A stretch of DNA of 64,000 bases, taken from positions 3,599 through 67,598 of the IMG/VR virus record IMGVR_UViG_3300047319_000410; one strand, 5' to 3'. This document shows positions 455-32,165 of the stretch, in pieces. Below the pieces are notes generated by a model. The model saw nothing but the letters and a program-made list of their open reading frames with translations. It was not told the origin of the DNA and ran no database searches. The stretch is from a virus. How positions within the stretch are numbered: position 1 is the stretch's first letter; each line of letters begins with the position of its first letter. Made by a program: the position numbers and the translations under genes.

Positions 455-529
455 TGGCTGTGGGAAAAGGACTTGAACCTTTACTAGTCGCTTTAACAGA
501 GCGGTGCATCACCATTATGCTACCCCACA
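455..529 (-). tRNA. tRNA-Asn(GTT)
   Basis: Cloverleaf: acceptor TGTGGGG/TCCCACA, D-loop with GG, anticodon loop CTGTTAA, T-arm AAAGG-TTCAAGT-CCTTT, G73, encoded CCA. Confidence 0.93.
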
Positions 530-630: not shown

Positions 631-1335
631 CTAAACTTTATTAGAAAAAGAAGAAATAAAGGATTTTAACTTTTCTGCATCTTTAATCCGCTCATCCTTT
701 AGAGAAGCGTATAAGTTCTCTACCTGATTGGCTTTATGTCTTTGTAACCTATCAATCGTGGTCTGATCTATAGGAGCTTTACCTACTGAGAAATGTAAAT
801 GTTCTGTAAAGATATCAATATAATGTTTACGACCAATAAGATCAGCTACTTCATTAATCCAAGTATCACAGTAATCAGACACAAAATAAGGAGGAACAAC
901 GTATCCCAATGTGTTAATCCAATTACGATGTAGGAATCCATGCGTGCCAAAAGACGGTGGCTGAATTCCATCCATTCCATATACGAATAAAATCTTATCT
1001 TCATACTTATTAAATTCTTCTCTTACCTTATCATCCCATCCTTTAGTTTGAAATATAATATCGTCTCCTGCAAACATTACTATTTCACCATCAGCTAATT
1101 CATATGCTTTATTAGTCATTTCAGCCATTAAGATTCTAGGACCAATAACTGCGTCTACATGAATGTATGGACCTTTCATGTAAGTTAATCTATCTATAGA
1201 CTCTTTATCGTCTTCATCAATATAAAAAATGATCTCTAAATTATATGGTTCGTTAGCTCTCATATAAGCAGATGACCATACTCTAGACATATTTAGAGGA
1301 CGGCCGCGAGTCGGACATAGAATAGAGATTTTCAT
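631..1335 (-). CDS. GT-A fold (family 2-like) glycosyltransferase
   Basis: N-terminal KISILCPTRGR, IDEDD and MFAGDD acidic motif. Confidence 0.8.
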   Translation of the reverse strand: MKISILCPTRGRPLNMSRVWSSAYMRANEPYNLEIIFYIDEDDKESIDRLTYMKGPYIHVDAVIGPRILMAEMTNKAYELADGEIVMFAGDDIIFQTKGWDDKVREEFNKYEDKILFVYGMDGIQPPSFGTHGFLHRNWINTLGYVVPPYFVSDYCDTWINEVADLIGRKHYIDIFTEHLHFSVGKAPIDQTTIDRLQRHKANQVENLYASLKDERIKDAEKLKSFISSFSNKV

Positions 1336-2492
1336 TTGAAGTAGTTAGATACCGTAGTTATAATACGATTAATATTCTCTTCTGTTAAGTATTGATGGCA
1401 ACCAATGTGAATACCATAATCTCCTACATACTCCGCTTCTGGGTAGCATCCTAAGTTATAGTAATCCTTTTCTCTCTCTGCCCTAAATGCATCATGTTGG
1501 GTAAAAGAACATCCAAAATTACGTTTCCAATGAATATCTGCCTTATCTAGTGCTTCTTTTAATCCATGAATCTTACCAGGAACTTTAACCGTCATTGAAA
1601 TACCATGAGGACAATTTTTATTATTTTTATCTTCTTCACTAAACCATAATTCATTCTTAAGGTGAGATAGTCCTACCATTATTCTCTTCATATTAATATA
1701 TCGAGTATCAAAAGTCTTCCAAAAATTAGCTATTCCCTCTAAGCCTATTGATGCCTCAAGATCATTCATTTTAGAGTTAAATCCACGTCTTGGGAAGTCA
1801 AAATAAAGATCTCCATTCCTTCTACCATGAGATCTAGTAGAGTTAATAATATCTGCTATATCCTTACGATTAGTAGATACCATTCCCCCTTCCCCACAAC
1901 AAACTAAATGGGCTACATAAAAACTAAAGGCTGCTGCATCACTATGATGACCAACATATTCATGATCATAAACCGCACCATGAGCTTCACAAGCATCTTC
2001 AAATAACATTACATTCTGAGAATCCGCTATTGCTTTTAATATTTTCATATTACAAGGCTTGCCCATAGTATGTACAGCAATAATAGCTTGTATTTGAAAT
2101 CCTAGTTCTTTATTGGCAGTATCAAAAATACACATAGTTTCTAATACTTTTTGTTCATCTATGTTTAAAGTTTCTCTTTTAATATCCACAGGAACAGGAG
2201 TAAATCCTGCTGCTCTAACGGCATTAGCAGTAGCAATAAAAGATAAAGCAGGAACTATAATTCCGTCTCCTTCTTTAGCTCCAAAATCATAAAGGGTTAG
2301 ACACATATTAATAACTGCGTCTGTACCTGAACTTACTGCTTTATTGTACTTATATCCAAATAAGTCTCCCCATTGCTTTTCAAATCTCTTAACCTTCTCA
2401 CCAGAGCTTGCCCAATTCTTATCACAACAATCCATAAGATTCTTGCGAGCAATTTCTCCAATTCTTAGTTCACCAAATTCTATTCTATCCAT
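1332..2492 (-). CDS. DegT/DnrJ-family PLP enzyme, ColD-like NDP-4-keto-6-deoxysugar 3-dehydratase
   Basis: AVSSGTDA, EDACEAHGA and SFYVAHLVCCGEGG, with His where aminotransferases have the Schiff-base Lys. Confidence 0.85.
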   Translation of the reverse strand: MDRIEFGELRIGEIARKNLMDCCDKNWASSGEKVKRFEKQWGDLFGYKYNKAVSSGTDAVINMCLTLYDFGAKEGDGIIVPALSFIATANAVRAAGFTPVPVDIKRETLNIDEQKVLETMCIFDTANKELGFQIQAIIAVHTMGKPCNMKILKAIADSQNVMLFEDACEAHGAVYDHEYVGHHSDAAAFSFYVAHLVCCGEGGMVSTNRKDIADIINSTRSHGRRNGDLYFDFPRRGFNSKMNDLEASIGLEGIANFWKTFDTRYINMKRIMVGLSHLKNELWFSEEDKNNKNCPHGISMTVKVPGKIHGLKEALDKADIHWKRNFGCSFTQHDAFRAEREKDYYNLGCYPEAEYVGDYGIHIGCHQYLTEENINRIITTVSNYFK

Positions 2493-3465
2493 TTATTTGA
2501 TCCTTAAAATAAAAATGCATATCATATACTAAATCTTCAAAAGAGTATCTTGGCAACCAACCTAATTCTTGTTCTATATAAGTAGAATTTCCTCTTAAAA
2601 ATGTTAATTCAGTTGGTCTAAGATAAATTTTATCTACTTCAACAAATTCCTTATAATCTAATTTACATAATTTAAATGCTATTTCACACAATTCTTTAAC
2701 ACTATGAGAACTTCCTGTGGCAACAACAAAATCATCTGGCTTACTATGTTGAAGCATCATCCACATAGCTCTAACATAATCCTTAGCATGTCCCCAATCT
2801 CTAACAGAATCCATATTACCTAATTTTAATTTATTTAACTTCCCACATTTAATATCTAATGCACCTTTAATTATTTTTGCACTAACAAAATTAGTTCCTC
2901 TTCTGGGGGATTCGTGATTAAATAATATTCCATTAGATATAAACATTCTATATGAATCTCTATAATTTTTACATATATTATATGCGAATAATTTAGAAGA
3001 CCCGTATGGAGAAACAGGCTTCATTTCAGAAAACTCATCAAGATATCCATATTTATTTAAAGGAGTGTTACCATACATCTCAGAGGTAGCTGCGTTATAA
3101 ATCTTAGCCATTGGGCATATTAATCTAGCAGCCTCTAATAAGTTTAAAGTACCTACCGCATTAACTTGAGTAGTATAAACTGGGTTATCAAAACTAATCC
3201 TAACGTGAGACTGGGCAGCTAAATGATAAATCTCATTAGGCATACACTCTTGTAATACCTTAATTAAAGACATGCTATCAGTCATATCAGCATATCTTCT
3301 TTGGATCTTATCTATTACTCCTGCTTCATTAAGTCTAGAAGTTTGAGTCTCTGCTACTGAGTGTCTACGAATAGTTCCCCAGACTTCATATCCTTTACTA
3401 AGTAATAACTCAGTAAGATAAGATCCGTCCTGGGAACTGATTCCAGTTATTAATGCTTTTTTCAT
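2485..3465 (-). CDS. gmd: GDP-mannose 4,6-dehydratase
   Basis: ALITGISSQDGSYL, HLAAQSHVRISF, TSEMYG, SPYGSSK, ILFNHESPRRG, RDWGHAKDYV. Confidence 0.95.
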   Translation of the reverse strand: MKKALITGISSQDGSYLTELLLSKGYEVWGTIRRHSVAETQTSRLNEAGVIDKIQRRYADMTDSMSLIKVLQECMPNEIYHLAAQSHVRISFDNPVYTTQVNAVGTLNLLEAARLICPMAKIYNAATSEMYGNTPLNKYGYLDEFSEMKPVSPYGSSKLFAYNICKNYRDSYRMFISNGILFNHESPRRGTNFVSAKIIKGALDIKCGKLNKLKLGNMDSVRDWGHAKDYVRAMWMMLQHSKPDDFVVATGSSHSVKELCEIAFKLCKLDYKEFVEVDKIYLRPTELTFLRGNSTYIEQELGWLPRYSFEDLVYDMHFYFKDQING

Positions 3466-4397
3466 AGTCTTAATGAAGGTGATCTATAATTATCTCTGAA
3501 CCATTCAATAGATTGCCACAAAGCTACATCTAAATCAGTAAATTCAAAGTTAGGAAATACTGAATTAAATACTGTCTTATTAGTAGGTCTTCTTAACTGA
3601 CCATTAGGCTTAGTAATATCCCACTCAATATTATTATACTTATAGATCTTAGCAATCTTATTAACTATAGATCTAATAGTATATTCTTGTTTACCAGATA
3701 CTATCATTAGTTCTGGGAGCACCTTGGAATCTAATAAATCAATAGCTATTTTAGCTACGTCCTTAGCATATAAGAATTCTCTGTATGATGATCCGTCTCC
3801 CCATATAACAACAGGCTCATCATAAGTCTTAGCATTATAAAACTTATGAATTAGTGAGGGTATTACGTGTCCATCCTTTAGATTATAATTATCTGATTCA
3901 CCAAACATATTACCTGGAATAAGGCAGCATCCTTTAAGTCCATGTTGTTTATTATAGGCTCTTAATTGTACGTCTACCATTCTCTTAGCATATGCATAAG
4001 ATTCGTGTGCTTTATGAGGAGGACCGTTGTGGAGGTTATCCTCAGATAATTCTTCTAGTCCATCTGGGAATGCACAAACAGAAGTAAACGCTACAATTCT
4101 TTTTATATTATTTAAACTTGCATAATGAATAACATTAGAATTAATTAAAATATTATCATAAAACTGTTGGGCGGGTGTATCAATATTACGTTGAATTCCT
4201 CCCACCCTTCCAGCCGTATGAATAACATAATGAGGCATATATTCTTGAAATAGTTCAGATACATTTCTAGGATTTCTTAAATCACGACTAATTCTATCTG
4301 AAAATATAAATTGGTATTGAGGATAATTTCCACTAATATTCTCAATAGCAGTTCCCACTAATCCTCTTGAAGTTACTAATACTCTATCCATTACCAA
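3462..4397 (-). CDS. GDP-L-fucose synthase / ColC-like epimerase-reductase
   Basis: HTAGRVGGI, YAYAKR, GHVIPSLIHK, VIWGDGSSYREFLYAKD; adjacent to gmd. Confidence 0.88.
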   Translation of the reverse strand: MVMDRVLVTSRGLVGTAIENISGNYPQYQFIFSDRISRDLRNPRNVSELFQEYMPHYVIHTAGRVGGIQRNIDTPAQQFYDNILINSNVIHYASLNNIKRIVAFTSVCAFPDGLEELSEDNLHNGPPHKAHESYAYAKRMVDVQLRAYNKQHGLKGCCLIPGNMFGESDNYNLKDGHVIPSLIHKFYNAKTYDEPVVIWGDGSSYREFLYAKDVAKIAIDLLDSKVLPELMIVSGKQEYTIRSIVNKIAKIYKYNNIEWDITKPNGQLRRPTNKTVFNSVFPNFEFTDLDVALWQSIEWFRDNYRSPSLRL

Positions 4398-5157
4398 ATC
4401 TCCTAGCCCATCTTTCAGGGGATCCTAACCAATTATAATAAGAAATTTGAATCTGTCGTCCTGGTTGATTCCAAATTGATTGAAATAATCCTAAATCATT
4501 TCCATGATATGCTTGTTGTACAGGAATATTATCTCCTACACCAGGATTCCAATCACACTTCAATACCTCAGCAGGAGATAATTGAAATGTACCACCAGCT
4601 TCTTGAAATCTAAATGCTAAATCATGGGTACACATATTAATATGTTCAAACCTACAATCTAATCCGCCTAACCATCTAAACATATCAGTATAATACATCC
4701 CAGCAGGAGCACACATATAACTGTCTTTAATTCCTGGTAACTGTTGATCTCTATGAGTTCTAGCTTTCCAATAATTATCATCAGGCATTTGACCAGACAA
4801 TCCTGGACCTTCCGAGTATCTTAAAATTATCCCTTTTAATGGATTGTTCTCTGGAGTTAATAAATCTAATGAATCCTTTAGAGAGTTTTCTAATAAGTAT
4901 CCATCATCAGCAGCCCACATCATGTAAGTTCCTTGTGCTAATAAGGATGCTATTTGAGTAGCTCTAGCAGGAGCACCAAAGTCTCTAATAAACTTAAAGT
5001 TAGATTCCTTAGTGAATGATTCTCCTGATGGTGGGTAAGGACCACAAATAATCATTTCCCAACTATAACCAATACCTATAGAGGATTTTACGGAATTATA
5101 TAATCTATCCCAATTTTGATATCTAATACCAGGGACTAAAATTGATAAATCATACAT
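4384..5157 (-). CDS. GT-A fold glycosyltransferase (paralog 1)
   Basis: YDLSILVPGIR, WAADDG, LGGLDC; similar to 5707-6519 and 6516-7274. Confidence 0.75.
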   Translation of the reverse strand: MYDLSILVPGIRYQNWDRLYNSVKSSIGIGYSWEMIICGPYPPSGESFTKESNFKFIRDFGAPARATQIASLLAQGTYMMWAADDGYLLENSLKDSLDLLTPENNPLKGIILRYSEGPGLSGQMPDDNYWKARTHRDQQLPGIKDSYMCAPAGMYYTDMFRWLGGLDCRFEHINMCTHDLAFRFQEAGGTFQLSPAEVLKCDWNPGVGDNIPVQQAYHGNDLGLFQSIWNQPGRQIQISYYNWLGSPERWARRFGNG

Positions 5158-5714
5158 TATTTTATTGCCTCCAAATTTAAACTCATTAATTGTCCATTTA
5201 CTTTATCCATGTGTGGGAGATAAGCTTGTGAATAATCATCTATACTACCGTGTTCAATATTTCTCCAATTCCATAAAGTAAGTTGATTAAATCCTGCATC
5301 ATTAAGCATATTACCTAATTTTTGATAATCAAATGCTTGAAAATGATAATCATAATCATTCTTATGACCGCCAAAAGTTAAACCAGATAATATATCAATA
5401 TTACTATTATTTTCCATAGGAAAAACATTAATGATATAATATTCGGCAATTGCTTTAAAATCTGGCACCGATAATCTTAATACTCCACCCTTTTTTAATA
5501 CTCTCCAACATTTATTAAGAATAATTTGTGATTCAATTTTCTTATAATGCTCTAATACGTGACACATATAGATAACATCTACACTACCACTTTCACAAGC
5601 AGCAAGATAGTTTTCTATACTACTAATAACATCAGCCTTACTTTCAGGTCTAATATCAACATTAATATAACCAGGAATATATCTTGATCCAGATCCAAGA
5701 TGTAATTTAACCAC
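5157..5714 (-). CDS. class I SAM-dependent methyltransferase
   Basis: KLHLGSG, HVLEH, RVLKKGGVLRLSVPD. Confidence 0.85.
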   Translation of the reverse strand: MVKLHLGSGSRYIPGYINVDIRPESKADVISSIENYLAACESGSVDVIYMCHVLEHYKKIESQIILNKCWRVLKKGGVLRLSVPDFKAIAEYYIINVFPMENNSNIDILSGLTFGGHKNDYDYHFQAFDYQKLGNMLNDAGFNQLTLWNWRNIEHGSIDDYSQAYLPHMDKVNGQLMSLNLEAIK

Positions 5715-6519
5715 TTATCAACTCCTTGTATTCTTTAGGTATTTTCTTACCAAATCTACGTTCCCACAATGGGGAAGCATATCTCCAATTACTAAAGTCT
5801 AAATGAATTCTCTTATATGCAGCATCTTTATTATTATACATTAACTTGAATATGGGATCGTCATGAATTAATTGAGCATCATGTACAGGTCCATGATCTC
5901 CGGTACGATTAGGCATATGATCACAATTCATAACCTCAGTAGGAGAATCAAGTAAAGTTCCTCCATCTGCCTGTACCCTAAACATAAGATCATGAAGAGG
6001 GTGATTAAGATATTCAAACTGACAATCAAATCCTCCAAGTTCAAAGAAATAATTTCTTTTCATTATAAAATGTAATGAAGTTTTCCACTCTTCTTTAATG
6101 CCCGGAAGCTGTAAATCAGCATGAGTCCACGCCCACCAAAAATTCATTGCTAATTCACCACCACTATATCCAGCGGACTCTCTATATCTTAAATTCATCA
6201 CATCTTTATCGTCACAATACTCTTTAAGAAGTCTTAAAGCATTTTCAATAGAATTATAATAAAATACTCCATCATCCACACAATGTAAAAGATATTCTCC
6301 TTCACAAGCCAATGCTGCTAATTGTGCGGCCCTAGTTGGACAACCATAATCTTTTACTAATTTAATATTAGATGTTCCACTTAGTTCAGGAGGTAGATCA
6401 AATGGACTACAAAATACTACTTCATAAGTATACTCACCTATTGCAGGCTTAATAGAATCATAAAATTGCTTCCAATTATGAGTTCTTATTGCGGGCAAGA
6501 ATATTGATACATTAATCAT
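5707..6519 (-). CDS. GT-A fold glycosyltransferase (paralog 2)
   Basis: VSIFLPAIR, HCVDDG, LGGFDC; start moved to the ATG that overlaps the upstream stop (ATGA). Confidence 0.75.
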   Translation of the reverse strand: MINVSIFLPAIRTHNWKQFYDSIKPAIGEYTYEVVFCSPFDLPPELSGTSNIKLVKDYGCPTRAAQLAALACEGEYLLHCVDDGVFYYNSIENALRLLKEYCDDKDVMNLRYRESAGYSGGELAMNFWWAWTHADLQLPGIKEEWKTSLHFIMKRNYFFELGGFDCQFEYLNHPLHDLMFRVQADGGTLLDSPTEVMNCDHMPNRTGDHGPVHDAQLIHDDPIFKLMYNNKDAAYKRIHLDFSNWRYASPLWERRFGKKIPKEYKELISG

Positions 6520-7274
6520 ACTGAAAACCTTCTCTCCCAAATACTAGGACTTCTTCTCCAGGTATTAATATCAATAACTGCGGGTCTTCCCGTAATGGAA
6601 TACAGTTTTCTAAAATTGGGTTCATCATTCTCTGCTTGTGCATCATGCATAGGGCCGTGATCTCCAGTTCTATCAGGCATATGAGTACATCTATACATAA
6701 CTTTATCAAACATTTCAATCTTAAATCCAGCAATTACAAATCTAACTGCTAAATCACTATGAGCCATTGCCATGCCTTCAAAATTAATACAGTCCCAACC
6801 CCCAAGATCAACTATATTTTGTCTACGAATTAATCCTGTATTAACTACGTAAGAATTTAGAGGTACATTTAATCCCCTCATCATACCATTATTACCTAAT
6901 AAGTAATACCCAGGATTACTCATTATATGATCAGTACCTTCTCCTTCATAATATTTGCCAGACAATATTGTTCCTTCATTTAAATCATAAAAAGCTTCTT
7001 CTAAAGCCCCCTCTAATGGAACTCCATCATCAGAAGTCCAAGTAATAAACTCTCCTTCTGATAATATTAATCCTATTTGTTGGCATCTAATAGGAGAACC
7101 AAAATCCTTTACATATTTAATATTACGCTTAGATTCTAATTCCTTAGGTAAACTATAAGGACCAACAATAACTAATTCCCAACTATTTTTGGTTAAATAC
7201 TTCTCAAACTTATTATAAATATCTTCCCAGAATTGAGTTCTTATTCCAGGCATTAAAATTGATAAGTCATACAT
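6516..7274 (-). CDS. GT-A fold glycosyltransferase (paralog 3)
   Basis: YDLSILMPGIR, WTSDDG, LGGWDC; HMPDRTGDHGP shared with paralog 2. Confidence 0.75.
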   Translation of the reverse strand: MYDLSILMPGIRTQFWEDIYNKFEKYLTKNSWELVIVGPYSLPKELESKRNIKYVKDFGSPIRCQQIGLILSEGEFITWTSDDGVPLEGALEEAFYDLNEGTILSGKYYEGEGTDHIMSNPGYYLLGNNGMMRGLNVPLNSYVVNTGLIRRQNIVDLGGWDCINFEGMAMAHSDLAVRFVIAGFKIEMFDKVMYRCTHMPDRTGDHGPMHDAQAENDEPNFRKLYSITGRPAVIDINTWRRSPSIWERRFSV

Positions 7275-12855: not shown

Positions 12856-13375
12856 TGACTTCTACTAAGATAGTTGATTTACCTTTTTTGGCTTGCTCTA
12901 ATGCATTTTTATAAGAATATTGTATATCTACTAAACTGCCCAATCTTTGAACCCAAATATGATCTAACATTTGTTTCATAGGAGAAGTAAAATCTCCTGT
13001 GTGCTGTGGGCCTGGGTGCAAAGGTCTTTCGGATCCTATCCCAGTTCTTATTATAACTCCAGGTTTATATCCTCCATCAGACATAACTCCTATTTTATCT
13101 AAGTGATTAACCAACTGATTAATCCCTAACAATAAAAAGTTCCACCTAGGGAATATACTTATAGGAATAAAGCCTTCTAGGGCTAATCCAATGCTCATTC
13201 CCATCTGCATCTCTTCGGCTACAGGTAATTCGAGCCTCTTTTCCATCGGAACATCAGCTAGTGTACCATACATGCCAGTACCAGGATAACTTACCGCCTG
13301 TCCTATAAAAATAGTATCAGGATGCTTTCCTAACATTGTCATAGAAGCCTTTAGATCATCAAAATACTTACCCAC
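12833..13375 (-). CDS. short ThDP-dependent enzyme beta subunit (pyrimidine-binding domain only)
   Basis: ELPVAEEMQMGMSIGLALEG, HPGPQHT; ~180 aa with no C-terminal domain; GTG start overlapping the upstream TAG. Confidence 0.8.
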   Translation of the reverse strand: MGKYFDDLKASMTMLGKHPDTIFIGQAVSYPGTGMYGTLADVPMEKRLELPVAEEMQMGMSIGLALEGFIPISIFPRWNFLLLGINQLVNHLDKIGVMSDGGYKPGVIIRTGIGSERPLHPGPQHTGDFTSPMKQMLDHIWVQRLGSLVDIQYSYKNALEQAKKGKSTILVEVSDYLHEK

Positions 13376-13989
13376 TAAAATTGTATCCTTTCTCCACTTA
13401 AAGGACCAGCATGAGGACAAGGTAAATCATAGCTATATCCATCTACATATTTAATAGGTAAACTTACTACCAAATCTTCTGTGTTATTATTAACCCAAGT
13501 ATTTCTAGTAGGGGTACAAACTGATTTACCATTATCTTCTATTATAAACTTTATGGGTAGATCGTGACCTATAACATACTTTATGGACTCCCAAAATATC
13601 CCTGTCTCTGCTGTCATATCACCAATAAAAACATAAACTTTAGAATCTCTATTCTTTAGTTTAATAGCTTTTGCTATTCCAACCCCTATAGGAATATTAC
13701 CACCAACAATAGCAGAGGATAAAATCTTATACTCGGGAAAACAAAGATTAATTGATCTTCCATTTAATATTGCTTGTTTAAGTTCCTCTTTTGGAACTCC
13801 CTTTAATAAACATTTATAATGGGATCTCCAGGTAGTAAGTACCCAATCTTGTTTTCTAATATCTTTAAATATCTCTATTAGTTGATCTTCATTATTTCTC
13901 TCTAAATGGATAGGAGCTTTAATCTGTTTATTAATAAAACAGTTAGAGATATCTTCCTCAAACTCTTGTAATTCAATTTTAGATAGCAT
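13375..13989 (-). CDS. short ThDP-dependent enzyme alpha subunit
   Basis: APIHL, WRSHY, SSAIVGG, GDMTAETG...IEDNG. Confidence 0.82.
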   Translation of the reverse strand: MLSKIELQEFEEDISNCFINKQIKAPIHLERNNEDQLIEIFKDIRKQDWVLTTWRSHYKCLLKGVPKEELKQAILNGRSINLCFPEYKILSSAIVGGNIPIGVGIAKAIKLKNRDSKVYVFIGDMTAETGIFWESIKYVIGHDLPIKFIIEDNGKSVCTPTRNTWVNNNTEDLVVSLPIKYVDGYSYDLPCPHAGPLSGERIQF

Positions 13990-15406
13990 ACTTTCTCTTA
14001 AGATCAATCTTCATCATATTATTAATATCGTCAATTACATACTGACCAAACTTATCTTTCATGTAAGACAGATAAGAAGGATTAGAAAAATACTGCTTAA
14101 AAGCGCGATCCCTAAAAGTAAGCACTTCACCACCTGTAATATACTTAGTGTCAAGTGGCCTAGTCTCATAGGCATGTTGAGAATATCCCAACCATGTTTC
14201 AGGTAACTTCCAACCTTCTTTAATAGCGATTTCATATAATTTACTTCCGGGGTAAGCCATTGCACAGTAAAAATTAGCATACTCTGTTTTTAACTCTAAA
14301 GCTAAGTCCAGAGTACGCTGCATGGTTTCTTGATTATCCTCAGGTAATCCAAAGATATAATTAGCTCCAACACAAATGTCAAATTCTCTAATCTTCTTTA
14401 CTATATTAAGAATATTAACATCTTCATATTTACCTTTAACTACATCCTTACGAACCTCTTTAACTCCAGATTCAATGCCTAAAGCAAGCCAATTAACTCC
14501 TGCTTTCTTTAATATCTCTAAGTGTCTCTCTTTGACCGTATCAATACGAGAATAGCACCAAATATTAAAGTCATGTTTTCTTTCAGCTATTAACTTACAA
14601 AGCTCTAGGAAATGGTCTTCTACTAAGACAAACATTTCATCTGCAATCTTTACATTCTTAATACCCATTTCTGCTATTCTATCAAACTCTTTAATTGTAT
14701 GCTTAGGATCCCAATATCTAATCATTTTCTTAGAGAATGGAGAGTTAATCATACAAAAGGTACAAGAAAATGGGCATCCAAGACTAGTATAAACTGATGC
14801 AAATGGAGTTCTAATTCCTTTGTTAGTCCATCCATGCCAATTAGATGTTCGATATTTATCCATTGGTAATAAATCCCAAGCCATGCCAGGAAGTTTAGTT
14901 CCTAGTTCTTCTTGGGGAATTATAGATTCTGTATAAATATGATCAATTGGTCCTTTATTATTAAGGAAATCTAATATAGAGTCTAGTCCTTCTCCTTTAA
15001 CTACATAATCTGAACATATAGTATCCAAAGAATTTTGGGGTAGTGCAGAAATATGCCCACCAATCAACATAACTTTATATCTTGTACTGTAATAAGCCTC
15101 TAATACATCTAATAATTTCTTTGCCCCTACCATATTTTGAGTAGATGCAGATGGTTGTTGACCATAAATTACTAGCACTACCAATCTAGGATTAAGTGCT
15201 CGTATTTGAAATACTGTGTCTTCACTTTGATAATTATTAGCTTCACAATCTAATATACCAACACTATAACCTTTAGCTCTTACTCCATTAGCTAGAAGGG
15301 AAGCCCAGATTGGCGGTTCCTTAGCACTATATTCAGTACTTAATCCTTGATATATTTTACTTGCGGCATTTGGGTGTACAAATAAAACGTCTAAATTACT
15401 TTGCAT
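13979..15406 (-). CDS. cobalamin-binding radical SAM enzyme
   Basis: EPPIW, GGHISALP, KGEG, SLGCPFSCTFC, GIESG, IFGLPED. Confidence 0.9.
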   Translation of the reverse strand: MQSNLDVLFVHPNAASKIYQGLSTEYSAKEPPIWASLLANGVRAKGYSVGILDCEANNYQSEDTVFQIRALNPRLVVLVIYGQQPSASTQNMVGAKKLLDVLEAYYSTRYKVMLIGGHISALPQNSLDTICSDYVVKGEGLDSILDFLNNKGPIDHIYTESIIPQEELGTKLPGMAWDLLPMDKYRTSNWHGWTNKGIRTPFASVYTSLGCPFSCTFCMINSPFSKKMIRYWDPKHTIKEFDRIAEMGIKNVKIADEMFVLVEDHFLELCKLIAERKHDFNIWCYSRIDTVKERHLEILKKAGVNWLALGIESGVKEVRKDVVKGKYEDVNILNIVKKIREFDICVGANYIFGLPEDNQETMQRTLDLALELKTEYANFYCAMAYPGSKLYEIAIKEGWKLPETWLGYSQHAYETRPLDTKYITGGEVLTFRDRAFKQYFSNPSYLSYMKDKFGQYVIDDINNMMKIDLKRKYAI

Positions 15407-15602
15407 CTTTAATTTCTTTATATAACTTCTTAAACTCTTTTAAATCTACTTCTAATTCTTTAATAACTTCTTTAAGTCCTTGCTTATCTAAAGTTTCACT
15501 ATCACTACAACACCCGCAGCCAGGGGTTGAGGCTCTAATTTCTCCACCATCATCTATATAAATAGAATCATATCTTGCATTAAATAATCTTACGTATGTC
15601 AT
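15396..15602 (-). CDS. small hypothetical protein (GCGCC)
   Basis: 68 aa ORF overlapping both neighbours. Confidence 0.6.
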   Translation of the reverse strand: MTYVRLFNARYDSIYIDDGGEIRASTPGCGCCSDSETLDKQGLKEVIKELEVDLKEFKKLYKEIKDAK

Positions 15603-15919
15603 TTTTTAATTAAACTTTCAATACTATTAAGAAATACTTTTGTAGCATCTTCTCTACCAAAATACATATACTCTGTAGTAGAATCATGTTCTTTATCAAT
15701 ATTTACACACAGTACAGATGGATAATCAAAATTACATTTCTCGCACCATATAAACAAATTATATTCTGACCATTGTAATGTTTCATCCCAATCAACCTTA
15801 CATTTTGGACATCTATATCCCAGTTCACAAGGAAAATCAAAAGGAACTACATTAGTTGGCCTTTTGCCTACTAATTTTTCAGCCCTTTCATTTTTACTTA
15901 TTATTGACTGCGTTTCCAT
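15599..15919 (-). CDS. hypothetical zinc-ribbon protein
   Basis: CPKC...CEKC; coupled to both neighbours. Confidence 0.65.
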   Translation of the reverse strand: METQSIISKNERAEKLVGKRPTNVVPFDFPCELGYRCPKCKVDWDETLQWSEYNLFIWCEKCNFDYPSVLCVNIDKEHDSTTEYMYFGREDATKVFLNSIESLIKK

Positions 15920-16923
15920 TATAAATTAGTGTAAGGTTGATTAGTTGGAAGTAAAATACTATATGCCTTGATAAGCTCTTTAATTCCGTCTCTAAGGCTG
16001 TACTTAGGCTTAAATCCTAGAGCCTCGATCTTAGCATTGGAGACGAGGTAGTCCCTCTTATCAGGATCAGACCTTATCTCAGAAGATGCTATGCAAAAAT
16101 CAGGGATATATTCTTTAATTCTTTCTGCTAGTTCTAACTTGGTTATATTAGTATCTGAAAGACCTACATTATATGCTTGACCCCTCATTCTATCAAAGTT
16201 ATTAATTGCAAAGATAAAGGCTAAGGCTACGTCATGAATATGGATAAAATTACGTTTAAATTCCTTCTCAAATAATACAATATACCCATCTTTTACTGCT
16301 TTGTAAGTAAAATCATTAACTAATAAGTCTAATCGCATTCTAGGAGAAGCTCCAAAGACAGTTGCTAGTCTTAATACTACTGCTCTACCATCTTCTAATA
16401 ACATTCTCTCTGCGTCACACTTAGTTTTACCATAAACACTAATTGGTTTTAATGGAGTTTCCTCTGTACAGAACTTACCTGATCCTTCTCCTAATCCATA
16501 GCCACTATTAGTATTAGGGAATATAATCTTTGCTTCTGGCCTAGCATACATTAAGATATTAGCAATTTGATTCCAATTAACGTCCCAAGCTAGTTTTTGA
16601 TCTTTATCACAGGCTGGGAATCCTACTATCGCTGCTAAAGGTATAATTACGTCTGCTTCTTTTACATATTTTGCTAATTTAACTTCGTCTCTAACGTCTC
16701 CATGTACAAACTCTATATCTCCCTTGTAGCAATAATCAGTAAGATTAACTTGTTTATACATTAGCGAGTCGTAGCACACGATTTTATCATAATAGAACCT
16801 ATATTCTGGGTGATTCTCTTTAAAGTCAAAGTCTAAAAATCCTGATATAGTCTTAGCAGTTATTAGTTTTTGAACTAATACAGAACCAAGATAACCATTA
16901 CTGCCCGTTATAAGAATATTCAT
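15919..16923 (-). CDS. NAD-dependent NDP-sugar epimerase/dehydratase (extended SDR)
   Basis: ILITGSNGYLGS, LAAIVGFPAC, YGKTK, LRLATVFG. Confidence 0.9.
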   Translation of the reverse strand: MNILITGSNGYLGSVLVQKLITAKTISGFLDFDFKENHPEYRFYYDKIVCYDSLMYKQVNLTDYCYKGDIEFVHGDVRDEVKLAKYVKEADVIIPLAAIVGFPACDKDQKLAWDVNWNQIANILMYARPEAKIIFPNTNSGYGLGEGSGKFCTEETPLKPISVYGKTKCDAERMLLEDGRAVVLRLATVFGASPRMRLDLLVNDFTYKAVKDGYIVLFEKEFKRNFIHIHDVALAFIFAINNFDRMRGQAYNVGLSDTNITKLELAERIKEYIPDFCIASSEIRSDPDKRDYLVSNAKIEALGFKPKYSLRDGIKELIKAYSILLPTNQPYTNL

Positions 16924-17432
16924 TACCAACTAATCTCCCAATCTTTAAAATCTGCTGCGAGACAATCAATTTTATAATCTTTTCTTCCGCCCTCTAAATA
17001 TTCTTGAATCTTATTTTTAGCAGTATTTCTTATACCATTAAGGCCATGAGTTAATTCAAGATTATTACCATCTTTAATTCCTTTACGATAATTTGTTTCA
17101 TTATGCCATATATGAAGATTCATTTGTGATAATACCATTATTGCTCTTATGAAATTTGCATCAATATCTTCATAGGGAATACCTCCTATAGCAATATCAA
17201 TATCGTGTAAGATATCTTTAATCTCTTTAGCATACTCTTCTTTATGTTCTTTAATAAAAACTTCTTTAAGTTGAGCAATGCTAAGACGATCAATAAGTTC
17301 TGCTAAAGTAGGAAGATATTTTCTTTCCCTATTTTTAAATGATTCCTCTACGTCAATATAAGTGACTGGAGGTTCCAATGGGACTTCTTTGCCTAATATT
17401 CTAACACATCCATTTTTTGGATCATAAACCAT
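16923..17432 (-). CDS. helical protein, DUF4254-like
   Basis: TLAELIDRLSIAQLK motif, recognised by eye. Confidence 0.5.
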   Translation of the reverse strand: MVYDPKNGCVRILGKEVPLEPPVTYIDVEESFKNRERKYLPTLAELIDRLSIAQLKEVFIKEHKEEYAKEIKDILHDIDIAIGGIPYEDIDANFIRAIMVLSQMNLHIWHNETNYRKGIKDGNNLELTHGLNGIRNTAKNKIQEYLEGGRKDYKIDCLAADFKDWEISW

Positions 17433-18031
17433 TATTTACCTCTTCCATTTGTTCCTTCCAATTTTGGACGAACTAAAATTAGTATCTTTTCTAGCCAATC
17501 TACTTTATATCCTTCTTTAACGCACTCCATAACATGAATATAATCACTATAGTCAGGATATAATTGTATCATCTTAGTATTAAATGGTAACTTAGTAAAT
17601 ATCTCAGTTCTATAAGTTGGACAAGCAACATTACCACCAACTAAGCCCTTAGATTTATCTTTACAAAGAATCATACCATTATTAAACTGTAGTCCTGGAA
17701 TCCATATGTCAATATTTGGTTTTTCTTTTAATGCAGATCTTAATATATTACCCGCCCCTACTGCAAACTCATCATCATCATCTAAAACAGTTACAAACTC
17801 TGTCTCTGCTGTTAAAGCTCCAAGATTAAGAGACATATATCCATAATTATGATACCTTCTGCCTGTGGATAATACTTTTAAAGTACTGTGCATAGCGTCT
17901 GGCTCTGGAACTGAGGGCCAAACCCCATCACCAACTACTAATATCTTCTTTAATCCTTCTCTTTTAGCAGACTCAACTGCATTAATTACTGTTGGTCTAT
18001 TGATTGATCGTATTATGACTGTCGTTTCCAC
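17432..18031 (-). CDS. GT-A fold glycosyltransferase-like protein
   Basis: TVIIRSINR, VVGDG, LNLG...FVTVLDDDD. Confidence 0.72.
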   Translation of the reverse strand: METTVIIRSINRPTVINAVESAKREGLKKILVVGDGVWPSVPEPDAMHSTLKVLSTGRRYHNYGYMSLNLGALTAETEFVTVLDDDDEFAVGAGNILRSALKEKPNIDIWIPGLQFNNGMILCKDKSKGLVGGNVACPTYRTEIFTKLPFNTKMIQLYPDYSDYIHVMECVKEGYKVDWLEKILILVRPKLEGTNGRGK

Positions 18032-19250
18032 CTTTTATTATTCCTTTATATTTAAGTAGTTCTCTATAAAGAGTCAAACGATTATGTACAACTTTATTTA
18101 AGTCAAAGTACTCATCTGTTATCTTTTTAAGATTTTGACCTAATTCCTCTCTATGTTTCTTATCTTTAATTAACTTAGTTAGAACTCGTACCCACTCAGT
18201 CCTGGGGGATTTTGGATCTATAAGATAGCCTGTTTTCCCGTTCTTTATAGTCTCCTCATAGCATCCGACGTTAGAAGCTACCAAAGGAACTCCATATCGT
18301 CCACACTCAGCTACCTTTATTTCTGACTTGCTATCATTAAATTCATTCATATTAAGAGGAGCAATAGCAACATCCATATTAGCATACATAATTCCATACT
18401 TATCAGCAGGCAGAGCACCATAAATATCCCAATTACGAGAACCTCTAAATCCAGCTAATAATGCTTTTCGATAATCTTCCCATACATCTTGTTGCCAATC
18501 TTCTTTTCCTGGCTCTACAGGAGGTTTACCATAAAATCCCCAATGTACGTTTTCTTTTCCTACTCTTTGGTTAACCATTTGAGGAACCCCTAAGAATTCT
18601 TTTACGTCATGGCTATGGTGAATTCCTCCGGCCCATCCAACTCTAGTTAATCCTTTTTTAGGTGTTTTAAACTTAGGAGCGTTCCAGCATTCTAAATTAT
18701 AATCAATAGCATTCTTAATTACTGCTAGTATTCCGTGGCAATAATCTTTAACCCTATGAGCAAACTTAACTTGAGTTACAGAAACTAAATCAGAGTGTGT
18801 ATAAATAAACTTAGTTATTTCCTCTAATCCCTTTTCCTTATAAACACTATAAAGTCTATGCTCTGGAAATAGATTGATTAACAGGTCATCGGTATCAAAA
18901 TGAAATAACTTATTCTTCTCTTTAACTTTACCTAATACTCTTGCTGTATAGTTACCACCAAAGTTACATATATTATTAGTTATTACTATATCTGCCCATT
19001 CAATATCTGCTAGATTATCCTCATCAAATTTACCTGATGATAAATCTAAATTAAGAGGATTGTCGTTTCTTTTAACCTCTATAACATTAGAGTATAATTC
19101 AATTAATTTAGCTACAGGATTAAGAACCCTATAAAAACTACATCCGCCTTCATTTGGTGGAAACATCAATAATCTTAATTTTCTTCCTAGTCCTGGAAAT
19201 TCGATCTGCTCTTTCCAGAACTCTGCTGTTGTTTCTATAGAATTGGTCAT
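17997..19250 (-). CDS. GT-B fold (family 4-like) glycosyltransferase
   Basis: GCSFYRV, DTDD, VGWAGG..H..D, FNDSKSEIKVAE, PLVASNV, NGKTGYL. Confidence 0.88.
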   Translation of the reverse strand: MTNSIETTAEFWKEQIEFPGLGRKLRLLMFPPNEGGCSFYRVLNPVAKLIELYSNVIEVKRNDNPLNLDLSSGKFDEDNLADIEWADIVITNNICNFGGNYTARVLGKVKEKNKLFHFDTDDLLINLFPEHRLYSVYKEKGLEEITKFIYTHSDLVSVTQVKFAHRVKDYCHGILAVIKNAIDYNLECWNAPKFKTPKKGLTRVGWAGGIHHSHDVKEFLGVPQMVNQRVGKENVHWGFYGKPPVEPGKEDWQQDVWEDYRKALLAGFRGSRNWDIYGALPADKYGIMYANMDVAIAPLNMNEFNDSKSEIKVAECGRYGVPLVASNVGCYEETIKNGKTGYLIDPKSPRTEWVRVLTKLIKDKKHREELGQNLKKITDEYFDLNKVVHNRLTLYRELLKYKGIIKGGNDSHNTINQ

Positions 19251-19255
19251 GTAAT

Positions 19256-19261
19256 ATTATA
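19256..19261 (-). promoter_or_regulatory. putative -10 box of the glycan operon (leaderless)
   Basis: TATAAT-attac-ATG, just downstream of a terminator, with no SD. Confidence 0.55.
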
Positions 19262-19270
19262 CATGACTAT

Positions 19271-19307
19271 AAAATAGAAAAATCCTAGTTTTTATGGAAA
19301 ACTAGGA
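19271..19307 (-). terminator. rho-independent terminator
   Basis: Stem TCCTAGTTTT/AAAACTAGGA (19283-19307) followed by a T-rich tract on the minus strand. Confidence 0.75.
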
Positions 19308-32164: not shown

Positions 32165-32165
32165 A

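What the first reader, a model, noticed from the sequence alone, without database searches (positions are those of the whole stretch)
631..19261. 18.6-kb phage operon for making and transferring unusual (deoxy, branched, methylated) sugars
Seen: 21 overlapping minus-strand ORFs behind one terminator plus TATAAT, including 7 GT-like genes, NDP-sugar enzymes, two ThDP alpha/beta pairs, two B12 radical SAM enzymes, a methyltransferase, a cupin and DJ-1. Known: phages often carry a few GTs, but this enzyme mix resembles antibiotic-sugar or complex O-antigen clusters. There is no wzx/wzy/ABC exporter and no base hydroxymethylase in the window. Inference: a self-contained cytoplasmic pathway builds an oligosaccharide of rare sugars on virion proteins or on DNA. 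This is the best candidate for an undescribed system here.
Basis: partly seen in the sequence, partly recalled or inferred. Interest (0 to 1): 0.88.

Follow-up and report, generated by a model that had tools for sequence, protein, structure and literature searches.

The report
Phage operon for rare branched sugars
A large soil phage carries an intact 23-gene operon that probably turns a host sugar nucleotide into unusual deoxy, carbon-branched and methylated sugars and attaches them to a still unknown target; parts of the same kit occur in hundreds of uncultured phages and in many bacteria.

Summary
Window 631-19250 (-) is one gap-free block of 22 ORFs plus a 68-aa ORF. It encodes GMD, a fucose-synthase-like reductase and a DegT enzyme with His at the catalytic Lys position (ColD-type 3-dehydratase). 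It also encodes two ThDP E1 alpha/beta pairs, two B12-domain radical SAM enzymes, an extended SDR, a metal cupin, DJ-1/PfpI, a methyltransferase and seven GT-like genes (five solid, two weak). None of the 22 larger proteins has a membrane segment.

The core (E1a/E1b, cupin, DJ-1, His-DegT, SDR, radical SAM) is a cassette found in 80 fetched bacterial loci and in at least 264 viral-contig stretches, but in no cultured phage. Bacterial copies often lie near polytopic membrane proteins and nucleotidyltransferases. Viral copies almost never do, and about half carry a virus-only helical protein instead.

Best reading: host GDP-mannose is converted to fucose/colitose-type and acyl-branched 3,6-dideoxy sugars, which soluble GTs transfer. 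The acceptor is unresolved: virion proteins about 0.4, host envelope glycan about 0.33, DNA about 0.07.

The operon is not self-contained: I found no sugar-activation genes. The chemistry has precedents (ColD, YerE, AviB/Plm8-9), so this is a new variant of a known kind. Earlier notes of this scan describe the same cassette on other DNA.

The parts
17997..19250 (-). GT4-type glycosyltransferase (417 aa), first gene of the operon
   Evidence: PF00534 E 1.9e-12 and PF13692 E 8e-10. A 55% homolog lies next to gp32 in viral locus L107.
19256..19307 (-). Hairpin with T run (19283-19307), then TATAAT 5 nt before the first ATG
   Evidence: Consensus matches only; not enriched over shuffles.
17432..18031 (-). 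Weak GT-A-like protein (199 aa)
   Evidence: PF00535 E 0.0097, below the cut-off. DDDD motif by reading. No PDB sequence hit.
16923..17432 (-). Virus-only helical protein (about 133-aa core) of unknown function, linked to the cassette
   Evidence: Found at 67-80% identity in most of the 42 of 80 viral loci that carry it (a few at 44-47%), and in none of 80 bacterial loci. Atlas clusters are 89-100% viral. 568 cluster representatives. The AF2 model is a helical bundle with no PDB match.
15919..16929 (-). Extended SDR (NDP-sugar dehydratase/epimerase/reductase type)
   Evidence: PF01370 E 1.6e-27. Cassette member in 41/80 viral and 49/80 bacterial loci.
15599..15919 (-). Orphan 106-aa Cys-rich (CPxC...CxxC) protein
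   Evidence: No homolog in 184 loci.
15396..15602 (-). Orphan 68-aa ORF that fills the only apparent gap
   Evidence: No homolog in 184 loci.
13979..15406 (-). B12-domain radical SAM enzyme (cassette type)
   Evidence: PF04055 and PF02310. HpnJ 121 bits and AprD4 family 97 bits. Best PDB hit is the AprD4 diol dehydratase, 82.6 bits. CPFSCTFC motif.
13375..14007 (-). Short ThDP E1 alpha-like subunit (second pair)
   Evidence: PF00676 E 1.7e-12. GDM...EDN ThDP motif aligned to the long E1 alpha. 52-61% identical to SAR11 copies.
12833..13420 (-). Short E1 beta-like subunit (second pair)
   Evidence: PF02779 E 3.6e-6. 57-61% identical to SAR11 copies.
11059..12855 (-). B12 radical SAM, KedN5-like C-methyltransferase
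   Evidence: NF033712 at 251 bits (cut-off 700). CPFQCTFC motif. 24 viral loci carry relatives; two of them (L001, L024) have it next to GMD, Fcl and DegT.
10134..11069 (-). Glyco_trans_1_2 glycosyltransferase
   Evidence: PF13524 E 2.6e-17.
9601..10137 (-). DJ-1/PfpI family protein with Cys105-His106
   Evidence: PF01965 E 4.8e-37. Present in 78/80 viral loci.
8991..9629 (-). Metal-binding two-barrel cupin
   Evidence: Invariant H41, H43, H82, E96, E98. Profile versus PDB cupin E 6.9e-4. AF2 pLDDT 91.5. Foldseek E 1e-7 to cysteine dioxygenase, bicupins and phosphomannose isomerase.
8164..8994 (-). ThDP E1 alpha-like subunit (first pair)
   Evidence: PF00676 and TIGR03182 at 113 bits. GDA-x26-NN motif. 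More than 2700 homologs of about 277 aa.
7274..8188 (-). E1 beta-like subunit (first pair)
   Evidence: PF02779 E 1.6e-13. Present in 78/80 viral loci.
6516..7274 (-). GT2-like glycosyltransferase, paralog 1
   Evidence: 34% identical to 4384-5157. One of 44 homologs carries PF00535 and one is named glycosyltransferase.
5707..6540 (-). GT2-like glycosyltransferase, paralog 2
   Evidence: Atlas structure TM 0.67-0.72 to GT2 clusters. hhalign probability 100% to the profile of 4384-5157.
5157..5714 (-). Class I SAM methyltransferase
   Evidence: PF08241 E 1.5e-6.
4384..5157 (-). GT2-like glycosyltransferase, paralog 3
   Evidence: 4 of 24 homologs carry PF00535. Profile versus PDB: 5tze E 1.6e-6 and SpsA E 0.0014.
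3462..4397 (-). GDP-L-fucose synthase-like (Fcl/ColC-type) epimerase-reductase
   Evidence: NF047922 at 182 bits. PDB GDP-L-fucose synthase at 210 bits, full length.
2485..3465 (-). GDP-mannose 4,6-dehydratase
   Evidence: TIGR01472 at 365.6 bits (cut-off 415). PDB GMDs at 304 bits, full length.
1332..2492 (-). DegT-family enzyme with His195 at the catalytic Lys position (ColD-type 3-dehydratase)
   Evidence: Aligned to perosamine synthase K186 and to its K186A mutant entry. The same His occurs in 70 of 72 viral and 47 of 56 bacterial homologous HSPs.
631..1335 (-). GT-like protein (PHROG glycosyltransferase family), last gene
   Evidence: phrog_14945 E 3e-37. 71 isolate-phage records match, 63 of them Streptomyces phages where listed hits are annotated glycosyltransferase, plus Pelagibacter phage HTVC008M at 30%. 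No Pfam or PDB hit.

Best explanation
This is an intact, tightly packed, probably co-transcribed operon of a T4-like phage. It re-tools a host nucleotide sugar and glycosylates a target that is reachable from the cytoplasm.

Shown by sequence:
- GMD.
- A ColD-type (His-for-Lys) 3-dehydratase.
- A fucose-synthase/ColC-type reductase.
- Two ThDP E1 alpha/beta pairs with no E2/E3.
- Two B12-domain radical SAM enzymes.
- An SDR, a metal cupin, DJ-1, an O/N-methyltransferase and seven soluble GT-like proteins.

Inferred pathway:
1. Host GDP-mannose is converted to GDP-4-keto-6-deoxymannose.
2. Part of it is reduced to a fucose-type sugar, which may be methylated.
3. Part is 3-deoxygenated to GDP-4-keto-3,6-dideoxymannose.
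4. This intermediate is either reduced (colitose-type) or attacked at C4 by an acyl anion carried on the E1-like enzymes (from pyruvate or another 2-oxo acid). That would give a yersiniose-like branched sugar.
5. The SDR then reduces it, and the radical SAM enzymes C-methylate or rearrange it.
6. The GTs assemble these sugars into an oligosaccharide.

Acceptor (inferred, my best guess): virion proteins, as in giant viruses and actinobacteriophages. The reason is that the viral copies of the cassette have shed every membrane-bound step.
For: Enzyme identities.

His at the Lys position. It is conserved across the cassette in 70/72 viral and 47/56 bacterial HSPs, which ties 3-deoxygenation to the E1 pair.

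ThDP motifs are intact in both alpha subunits. There is no E2/E3 among the 22 proteins scanned.

Precedents read in papers:
- E1 alpha/beta Plm8/Plm9 add a pyruvate-derived C2 branch at C4 of NDP-4-keto deoxyhexoses; avilamycin and yersiniose are cited there (PMC4802897, passages).
- YerE/ErwE add acyl branches to CDP-4-keto-3,6-dideoxyglucose (PMC9306805, part 1 of the text).
- A GDP-linked C3-dehydratase pathway exists in C. jejuni (PMC10440746, abstract).

Operon integrity: 20/21 overlapping junctions plus a filled gap. Copies in four other runs are 99% or more identical, without indels.

Soluble-only machinery:
- None of the 22 cluster proteins of 80 aa or more has a TM-like segment.
- 0 of 1804 ORFs in 80 viral loci have 6 or more TM-like segments, against 32 ORFs in 23 of 80 bacterial loci.

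A virus-only conserved partner protein accompanies the cassette in 42/80 viral loci.

Homologs of the GT at 631-1335 match 63 Streptomyces phage records, and those among the 25 rows listed are annotated glycosyltransferase.
Against: No product, substrate or acceptor was observed; everything beyond family assignment is inference.

- The E1 pairs could instead build an unusual ketose phosphate in the manner of DXS or transketolase. The cupin resembles phosphomannose isomerases as much as dioxygenases, and other copies of the cassette travel with GHMP/PfkB kinases, HAD phosphatases and SIS isomerases.
- I could not compare the E1 pair directly with AviB1/Plm8.
- The cassette radical SAM enzyme is closest to the AprD4 dehydratase and HpnJ, not to a proven methyltransferase.
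- KedN5 family membership fails its cut-off (251 against 700 bits).
- For the virion acceptor there is no positive evidence. No Ser/Thr-rich tails were seen in the contig's proteins. The operon sits in the replication module, not among the structural genes. Bacterial copies lie in surface-polysaccharide-like loci (earlier notes), which fits host-surface remodelling equally well.
Confidence: 0.42

Rival explanations
1. Host-surface remodelling. The phage makes the rare sugars, and its peripheral GTs build them onto undecaprenyl-linked O-antigen, capsule or S-layer-glycan precursors at the inner face of the membrane. The host's own initiating transferase, flippase and ligase export them. The changed cell surface blocks superinfection or delays recognition.
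For: The cassette's cellular copies sit beside polytopic membrane proteins in 23 of 80 loci. Earlier scan notes place them in Wza/Wzc/Wzy loci (I did not check those loci myself). Papers on marine T4-like phages interpret their GT, sugar and radical SAM clusters in this way (PMC7029224 and PMC12801897, passages). Location in the early/replication module fits a takeover function.
Against: The phage contig encodes no initiating phosphoglycosyltransferase, flippase, polymerase, ligase or ABC exporter, and neither do any of the 80 viral loci. Seven GTs suggest a whole new glycan, which host Wzx/Wzy would have to accept. The interpretation in the papers is itself untested.
Confidence: 0.33
2. DNA hypermodification. 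The GTs attach the rare sugars to hydroxymethylated pyrimidines of phage DNA, as in T4 and the metagenomic GT clusters of Pyle et al.
For: The operon lies between a gene I read as recA-like and gp32, in the replication module. Phage GTs that put mono- to trisaccharides, including heptose, on 5hmC are known (bioRxiv 10.1101/2023.12.21.572611; abstract, section 9 and passages). The PHROG hit of 631-1335 also touches the N-terminal 200 positions of a family annotated DNA methyltransferase.
Against: The contig has no thymidylate-synthase/hydroxymethylase family, Tet/JBP or C5-methyltransferase gene, but it is only 39% complete. Of 30 cassette-bearing viral records, 2 have a PF00303 gene, and none of the 3 that are 90% or more complete does. 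The Tet/JBP search found 0 of 5, but its control was silent, so that result is inconclusive. Seven GTs and branched sugars go far beyond known DNA glycans.
Confidence: 0.07
3. The E1-like pairs, cupin and DJ-1 do not branch an NDP-sugar. Instead they synthesise an unusual (deoxy)ketose phosphate or 2-oxo-acid-derived unit that enters the pathway earlier. The overall product would still be a rare glycan, but with different chemistry.
For: E1/DXS/transketolase kinship (DXP_synthase_N hit). Cupin fold similarity to phosphomannose isomerases (TIGR01479 C-terminal hit). Co-occurrence with GHMP kinase (58/80 bacterial, 26/80 viral), PfkB kinase (34/80 viral), HAD phosphatases and SIS isomerase.
Against: The tight, cassette-wide link to a His-type 3-dehydratase and extended SDRs fits YerE-like branching of a 3-deoxy-4-keto sugar. 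This window has no kinase, phosphatase or nucleotidyltransferase to activate a newly made sugar phosphate.
Confidence: 0.18

Closest known systems
GDP-L-colitose pathway (Gmd, ColD, ColC) and the C. jejuni GDP-3,6-dideoxy-heptose pathway
   Same: A GDP-sugar 4,6-dehydratase, a DegT-fold C3-dehydratase with His in place of the Schiff-base Lys, and an Fcl-type epimerase/reductase. All three are present and adjacent at 1332-4397 (PMC10440746 abstract; ColD's His is recalled).
   Different: Here the trio is embedded in a 23-gene phage operon with ThDP, radical SAM and seven GT genes. The substrate (mannose or heptose form) is untested. There are no activation genes.
ThDP-dependent acyl branching of 4-keto deoxysugars: YerE/ErwE (yersiniose, erwiniose) and the E1 alpha/beta pairs AviB1/AviB2 and Plm8/Plm9
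   Same: A ThDP enzyme without E2/E3 sits next to enzymes that make a 3-deoxy-4-keto sugar, with a reductase nearby (PMC9306805, PMC4802897).
   Different: Here there are two different pairs, one of them very short (210 + 195 aa). They are always accompanied by a metal cupin and a DJ-1 protein, which the known systems do not have. The context is GDP-linked (known cases are CDP- or dTDP-linked) and viral. Direct sequence kinship to AviB/Plm was not tested.
'LPS-related' gene clusters and radical SAM cassettes in hypervariable regions of marine T4-like cyano- and pelagimyophages
   Same: Large myophages with clusters of GTs, NDP-sugar enzymes and radical SAM genes, with function inferred only (PMC7029224, PMC12801897). 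HTVC008M has a homolog of 631-1335 in a small sugar cluster.
   Different: No cultured phage in the 50,697-record collection has the E1 cassette (2 distant 31% hits) or the helical partner protein. This phage is found in rhizosphere/soil runs. The enzyme set is much richer.
Virus-encoded glycosylation machineries of chloroviruses and mimiviruses, and virion glycosylation in actinobacteriophages
   Same: Soluble virus-encoded sugar-nucleotide enzymes (GMD and fucose synthase in chloroviruses, recalled) plus GTs acting without membrane export (PMC9614988, listing only; Freeman et al. 2023 as cited in PMC12619734).
   Different: No evidence here that virion proteins are glycosylated. The virus lineage and the sugars differ.
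Phage DNA sugar hypermodification clusters (T4 glucosylation; Pyle et al.)
   Same: Phage GTs, sometimes with a sugar epimerase, near replication genes.
   Different: Those clusters are defined by a neighbouring hydroxymethylase, 5mYOX or C5-methyltransferase, which is absent here and in 3 of 3 complete relatives.

Membership tests
ColD-type GDP-3,6-dideoxyhexose pathway | GDP-mannose 4,6-dehydratase | tested here: met
   TIGR01472 at 365.6 bits (just under the 415 cut-off). Full-length 304-bit match to solved GMDs.
ColD-type GDP-3,6-dideoxyhexose pathway | DegT-fold enzyme with His replacing the catalytic Lys | tested here: met
   His195 aligns with K186 of perosamine synthase and with the Ala of its K186A entry.
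ColD-type GDP-3,6-dideoxyhexose pathway | Fcl/ColC-type C5-epimerase/C4-reductase | tested here: met
   NF047922 at 182 bits (below the 500 cut-off). 210 bits, full length, to GDP-L-fucose synthase structures.
ColD-type GDP-3,6-dideoxyhexose pathway | 3-deoxygenation activity on a GDP-4-keto-6-deoxy sugar | not testable with these tools
   Needs an enzyme assay.
E1 alpha/beta ThDP sugar-branching enzymes (AviB1/B2, Plm8/9 type) | E1 alpha with ThDP-binding motif plus a separate beta subunit | tested here: met
   PF00676 + PF02779 twice. GDA-x26-NN and GDM...EDN motifs.
E1 alpha/beta ThDP sugar-branching enzymes (AviB1/B2, Plm8/9 type) | No E2/E3 partners; embedded among NDP-keto-sugar enzymes | tested here: met
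   None among the 22 cluster proteins. The pairs are flanked by dehydratase, SDR and GT genes.
E1 alpha/beta ThDP sugar-branching enzymes (AviB1/B2, Plm8/9 type) | Closer sequence kinship to AviB1/Plm8 than to metabolic E1s | not tested
   No tool gave me those sequences. The best NCBIfam hit is generic PDH E1 alpha at 113 bits.
Class B (cobalamin) radical SAM methyltransferases | N-terminal B12-binding domain plus CxxxCxxC radical SAM core | tested here: met
   Both proteins and their motifs.
Class B (cobalamin) radical SAM methyltransferases | Membership of a characterised methyltransferase family at its curated score | tested here: not met
   KedN5 family 251 against 700 bits. The second enzyme scores best with HpnJ (121 against 578) and AprD4 (97 against 500), and its best PDB match is the AprD4 dehydratase.
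Wzx/Wzy- or ABC-dependent O-antigen/capsule locus | Initiating phosphoglycosyltransferase, flippase/polymerase/ligase or ABC exporter | tested here: not met
   None of the 22 cluster proteins of 80 aa or more has a TM-like segment. No contig ORF has 2 or more such segments.
Phage DNA sugar-hypermodification cluster | GT next to dCMP/dUMP hydroxymethylase (ThyS family), 5mYOX/TET or C5-methyltransferase | tested here: not met
   PF00303, PF12851 and PF00145 are all absent from the 67.6-kb contig, which is 39% complete. PF00303 is in 0 of 3 complete cassette-bearing relatives.
Actinobacteriophage-type virion glycosylation | GT genes beside capsid/tail genes and glycosylated C-terminal extensions | tested here: inconclusive
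   The operon is 19 kb or more from the structural genes. No Ser/Thr-rich tails. In other viral loci the cassette lies within 10 kb of the capsid gene.

The most novel reading that the evidence does not exclude
Uncultured T4-like phages of soil and sea carry an autonomous, all-soluble glycosylation kit. It coats their own virions with oligosaccharides that contain acyl-branched, C-methylated 3,6-dideoxy sugars. The enzyme trio at its core (E1-like ThDP pair, metal cupin, DJ-1) would be an uncharacterised sugar-branching machine. The virus-only helical protein would be the adaptor that redirects it from the cell envelope to virion proteins.
Probability: 0.25. Interest if true: 0.85.

Novelty: new variant of a known kind. 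Interest (0 to 1): 0.6.

Why it matters
If the pathway works as inferred, phages make sugars of a complexity so far known only from antibiotic producers and a few LPS types. They would do so with an enzyme trio (E1-like ThDP pair, cupin, DJ-1) that nobody has characterised, although it is common in SAR11, Nitrospira, CPR bacteria, DPANN archaea and hundreds of viral contigs.

Finding the acceptor would settle an old open point: what the 'LPS genes' of large environmental phages are for. The candidates are a virion coat, host-surface camouflage and DNA protection.

The window gives a compact set of soluble enzymes that could be reconstituted starting from GDP-mannose.

Tried and rejected
**Related cultured phages.** Nucleotide searches of the operon and of structural genes against 50,697 phage records found nothing.

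**First viral scan.** A single-protein scan of viral contigs with E1 alpha found nothing. The alignment-based scan did.

**Helical protein 16923-17432.**
- Pfam and PHROG gave only sub-threshold hits.
- The AF2 model (pLDDT 79) had no Foldseek match at E 0.001 or better. The VIA-align wide search gave only helical-hairpin matches with Z under 8.
- I scanned nine longer proteins and the top hit (P0189) from its 568-member family. They carried only an HNH/NUMOD3 endonuclease, a weak HTH, or nothing.
- Function remains unknown.

**Small ORFs.** The 68-aa and 106-aa ORFs have no relatives in 184 loci.

**SAR11 host idea: dropped.**
- The best cellular E1 alpha hits are Pelagibacteraceae.
- But the window sits on a long branch outside the SAR11 clade (161 rows were reduced to 147 by removing identical ones, and HSPs covering 200 or fewer query residues were dropped).
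- The DNA is held by rhizosphere/soil metagenome runs (the possible source run X1 was left out; the runs are of one year and may belong to one campaign).

**RNA.** No RNA holder was listed for the stretch, so nothing can be said about expression.

**T4 late-promoter motif TATAAATA.** 15 matches against 20 expected, so it is of no use.

**Ser/Thr-rich segments.** A scan of the contig's proteins for such segments as possible O-glycosylation tails found nothing striking.

**Tet/JBP search of relatives.** It had no working positive control, so it is not used as evidence.

**PDB sequence searches.** Searches for 17432-18031 and 631-1335 gave nothing.

**Not done or not available.**
- Complex prediction was not used: I claim no specific binding pair.
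I used the search for related loci instead.
- Supplements were closed. The supplementary tables of Pyle et al. and of the pelagimyophage paper may list clusters like this one, and I could not check.

**Literature.** Searches for a description of the E1/cupin/DJ-1 cassette or of ColD-type genes in viruses found none in the held library.

Full report
**What is there**

The window is bases 3599-67598 of a single 67.6-kb viral contig without terminal repeats. CheckV puts the contig at 39% complete. It is a phage with T4-like parts:
- a gp32-like protein at 19931-20725;
- DnaB helicase, ribonucleotide reductase, SbcC/SbcD-like nuclease, a family A polymerase piece, tail sheath and a gp23-like major head protein.

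The head protein is only 30% identical to its best match among 50,697 phage records. No nucleotide match exists there.

Between 631 and 19250 the minus strand carries 22 ORFs of 80 aa or more. Twenty of their 21 junctions overlap by 1-46 nt. The only 192-nt gap is filled by a 68-aa ORF. GC content (0.32-0.35) does not differ from the rest of the contig.

A hairpin with a T run (19283-19307) and a TATAAT five bases before the first ATG are present. Such consensus sites are not more frequent than in shuffled sequence. A tRNA-Asn gene follows the operon at 455-529.

In four further metagenome runs labelled rhizosphere or soil, short contigs at least 99% identical cover 20-30 of 30 bins of the stretch, without indels or joints. 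Two of them bridge the junction between the first gene and its upstream neighbour. The sequence is therefore real, stable and not decaying.

**Gene content**

Family searches give the following, in order of transcription:
1. GT4 glycosyltransferase.
2. A weak GT-A-like protein.
3. A helical protein of unknown function.
4. An extended SDR.
5. A 106-aa Cys-rich protein, then the 68-aa ORF.
6. A B12-domain radical SAM enzyme.
7. A short E1 alpha/beta pair.
8. A KedN5-like B12 radical SAM enzyme.
9. A Glyco_trans_1_2 transferase.
10. DJ-1/PfpI.
11. A cupin.
12. A full-size E1 alpha/beta pair.
13. Two unknowns, a methyltransferase and a third unknown.
14. An Fcl-like reductase, GMD, a DegT enzyme and a last GT-like protein.

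The three unknowns are paralogs of one virus-rich GT2-like family:
- They are 34% identical pairwise, and profile comparison gives 100% probability.
- Relatives carry PF00535.
- Their profile hits the GT-A domain of entry 5tze and SpsA in the PDB.
- The Atlas model of 5707-6540 superposes on GT2 clusters with TM 0.67-0.72.

The cupin is confirmed by an invariant HxH...H...E pattern, by a confident two-barrel model (pLDDT 91.5), and by Foldseek matches at E 1e-7 to cysteine dioxygenase, bicupins and archaeal phosphomannose isomerases. None of the 22 proteins of 80 aa or more has a membrane-spanning stretch.

**The deoxysugar core**

I tested this. In the alignment to Caulobacter perosamine synthase, His195 stands exactly at K186, the position that is Ala in the deposited K186A mutant. 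From recall, this substitution marks the PMP-dependent 3-dehydratases ColD and E1. C. jejuni has a biochemically shown GDP-linked C3-dehydratase route (PMC10440746, abstract).

GMD matches solved GDP-mannose 4,6-dehydratases over its full length at 304 bits. The reductase matches GDP-L-fucose synthases at 210 bits. The three adjacent genes thus encode a colitose/fucose-type route from GDP-mannose.

**A mobile cassette**

The E1 alpha subunit belongs to a large family of about 277-aa proteins (2736 hits).

*Bacterial and archaeal loci.* A scan of one genome per prokaryotic species found 113 relatives, of which I kept 80. They come from Pelagibacteraceae, Nitrospira, Patescibacteria, DPANN archaea, SAR116 and others. 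Around them the same genes recur:

| Gene | Loci of 80 |
|---|---|
| E1 beta | 76 |
| cupin | 54 |
| SDR | 49 |
| DegT | 48 |
| DJ-1 | 46 |
| cassette radical SAM | 36 |

In SAR11 genomes the order is radical SAM, DJ-1, cupin, E1a, E1b, short E1a, short E1b, DegT, SDR, at 44-61% identity to the phage proteins. These loci also hold GHMP kinase (58), nucleotidyltransferase (35), SIS isomerase (21), PhyH oxygenase (20) and RmlC-like epimerase (13).

*Viral loci.* A scan of IMG/VR found 264 viral stretches, of which I kept 80:

| Gene | Loci of 80 |
|---|---|
| E1 beta, cupin, DJ-1 | 78 each |
| DegT | 67 |
| radical SAM | 44 |
| SDR | 41 |
| GMD-like | 38 |
| Fcl-like | 38 |

Only three loci (L142, L145, L146) also share the GT2-like paralogs and the methyltransferase.

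In the viral loci L161-L184 the cassette lies within 10 kb of a gp23-like head gene, the prohead protease or gp46/47 homologs. Three cassette-bearing records that are 90% or more complete (173-318 kb) encode a gp23-like protein. In L107 the sugar island lies between gp32 and the same flanking gene as in the window, but with different content. This is what a hypervariable island looks like.

Viral and cellular E1 alpha sequences are interleaved in a tree. The tree needs at least 3 label changes forced by well-supported branches, and 10 by parsimony. The window sits on a long branch, so no donor or host can be named.

No cultured phage has the cassette (two 31% hits only).

**What links the parts**

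Across all fetched loci the DegT homolog next to the E1 pair has His at the Lys position in 70 of 72 viral and 47 of 56 bacterial HSPs. The cassette therefore couples 3-deoxygenation of a 4-keto sugar with a ThDP enzyme that has no E2/E3.

That is the logic of yersiniose-type branching. YerE and ErwE add acyl groups from 2-oxo acids to C4 of CDP-4-keto-3,6-dideoxyglucose, followed by a reductase (PMC9306805). In actinomycetes, E1 alpha/beta pairs such as Plm8/Plm9 do the same with pyruvate (PMC4802897).

Both alpha subunits here keep the ThDP motif. I therefore read the E1 pairs as branching enzymes, the SDR as dehydratase or branch reductase, and the radical SAM enzymes as C-methylating or rearranging tailoring enzymes.

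Caveats:
- One radical SAM enzyme is KedN5-like only below the family cut-off. The other is nearest to HpnJ and the AprD4 diol dehydratase.
- The roles of the invariant cupin and DJ-1 partners are unknown.
- A rival reading is that the trio builds an unusual ketose phosphate. It is kept alive by the kinases, phosphatases and isomerases that travel with other copies, and by the cupin's likeness to phosphomannose isomerases.

**Virus-specific features**

Viral copies differ from cellular ones in three ways.
- Membrane proteins: no ORF with six or more TM-like segments among 1804 ORFs in 80 viral loci, against 32 such ORFs in 23 of 80 bacterial loci.
- Nucleotidyltransferase: 1 of 80 viral loci, against 35 of 80 bacterial.
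- A small helical protein (16923-17432 here): present in 42 of 80 viral loci, mostly at 67-80% identity, which is more conserved than any enzyme of the cassette. It is absent from the bacterial loci, and its Atlas clusters are 89-100% viral. It has 568 cluster representatives at 50% identity. Its fold is a plain helical bundle without an informative match, and fusions say nothing.

The window itself has no activation genes at all, so it must use a host GDP-sugar.

**The acceptor**

*DNA.* This is the least likely.
- The contig has no ThyS-family, Tet/JBP or C5-methyltransferase gene.
- Among 30 cassette-bearing viral records only 2 have a ThyS-family gene, and none of the 3 complete ones does.
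- Known DNA-glycosylating clusters are defined by such neighbours (Pyle et al.).

*Host envelope or virion proteins.* I cannot decide between these.
- For the envelope: cellular copies lie in polysaccharide-like loci, and this is the usual reading of 'LPS genes' in marine myophages.
- For the virion: the systematic loss of every membrane step, the number of GTs, and the precedents of giant viruses and actinobacteriophages.
- Positive evidence for the virion is missing.
- I put virion proteins at about 0.4, host envelope at 0.33, DNA at 0.07, and the remainder on other targets.

**Novelty**

Each chemical step has a described relative, and sugar clusters in large phages are known, so this is not a new kind of system. 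What is new:
- the combination of genes;
- the uncharacterised E1/cupin/DJ-1 trio and its virus-only partner;
- its spread in uncultured phages of soil and sea;
- the size of this operon.

My literature searches found no description of the cassette, though supplements were closed. Earlier notes of this scan describe the same trio in other genomes, including a marine phage operon and a cupin-E1 alpha fusion. Those are unverified notes, not independent evidence.

Noticed in passing
window 455-529 (-): A tRNA-Asn (GTT) gene lies directly downstream of the operon (ARAGORN; Rfam 58.8 bits).
   Followed up: partly
window 15396-15602 (-) and 15599-15919 (-): Two orphan small ORFs lie just upstream of a radical SAM gene. 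One is 68 aa with a CGCC motif and a Lys/Glu-rich tail. The other is 106 aa with CPxC...CxxC. Neither has a relative in 184 related loci.
   Followed up: partly
window 19343-19918 (-): A 191-aa protein between gp32 and the operon has a strongly hydrophobic N-terminus (KD 2.08), like a signal peptide or lipoprotein. It has no family hit.
   Followed up: no
window 16923-17432 (-); L105-L184: The virus-only helical protein family (568 cluster representatives) is the most conserved gene of the viral cassette and has no known fold relative or function. The window copy has a 35-aa N-terminal extension that its relatives lack, so the true start may lie further downstream.
   Followed up: yes
L107 (viral contig), 550-20632: In a related phage a sugar island lies between gp32 and the same flanking gene as in the window (I read it as recA-like from its sequence). 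Only 11 of the 24 window proteins I compared have matches there. It looks like a hypervariable island at a fixed genome position.
   Followed up: partly
L185 (Pelagibacter phage HTVC008M, record 124379-133406): A small sugar cluster next to the ribonucleotide reductase genes. It holds a homolog of window 631-1335 fused into a 363-aa protein, a methyltransferase, a carbamoyltransferase, a NadE-like protein and a UDP-glucose/GDP-mannose dehydrogenase. Most are annotated hypothetical.
   Followed up: no
whole window: The best cellular relatives of several cassette proteins are marine SAR11, yet near-identical DNA is held by rhizosphere and soil metagenome runs. The host is unknown, and the low GC (about 32%) is unusual for common soil bacteria.
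   Followed up: partly
window 30318-33167 and 40538-42793: Earlier notes on this window mention a family A polymerase split into three genes and a tail-terminator/hydrolase fusion. My PHROG scan saw the polymerase piece and a weak tail sheath stabiliser hit, but I did not examine either further.
   Followed up: no
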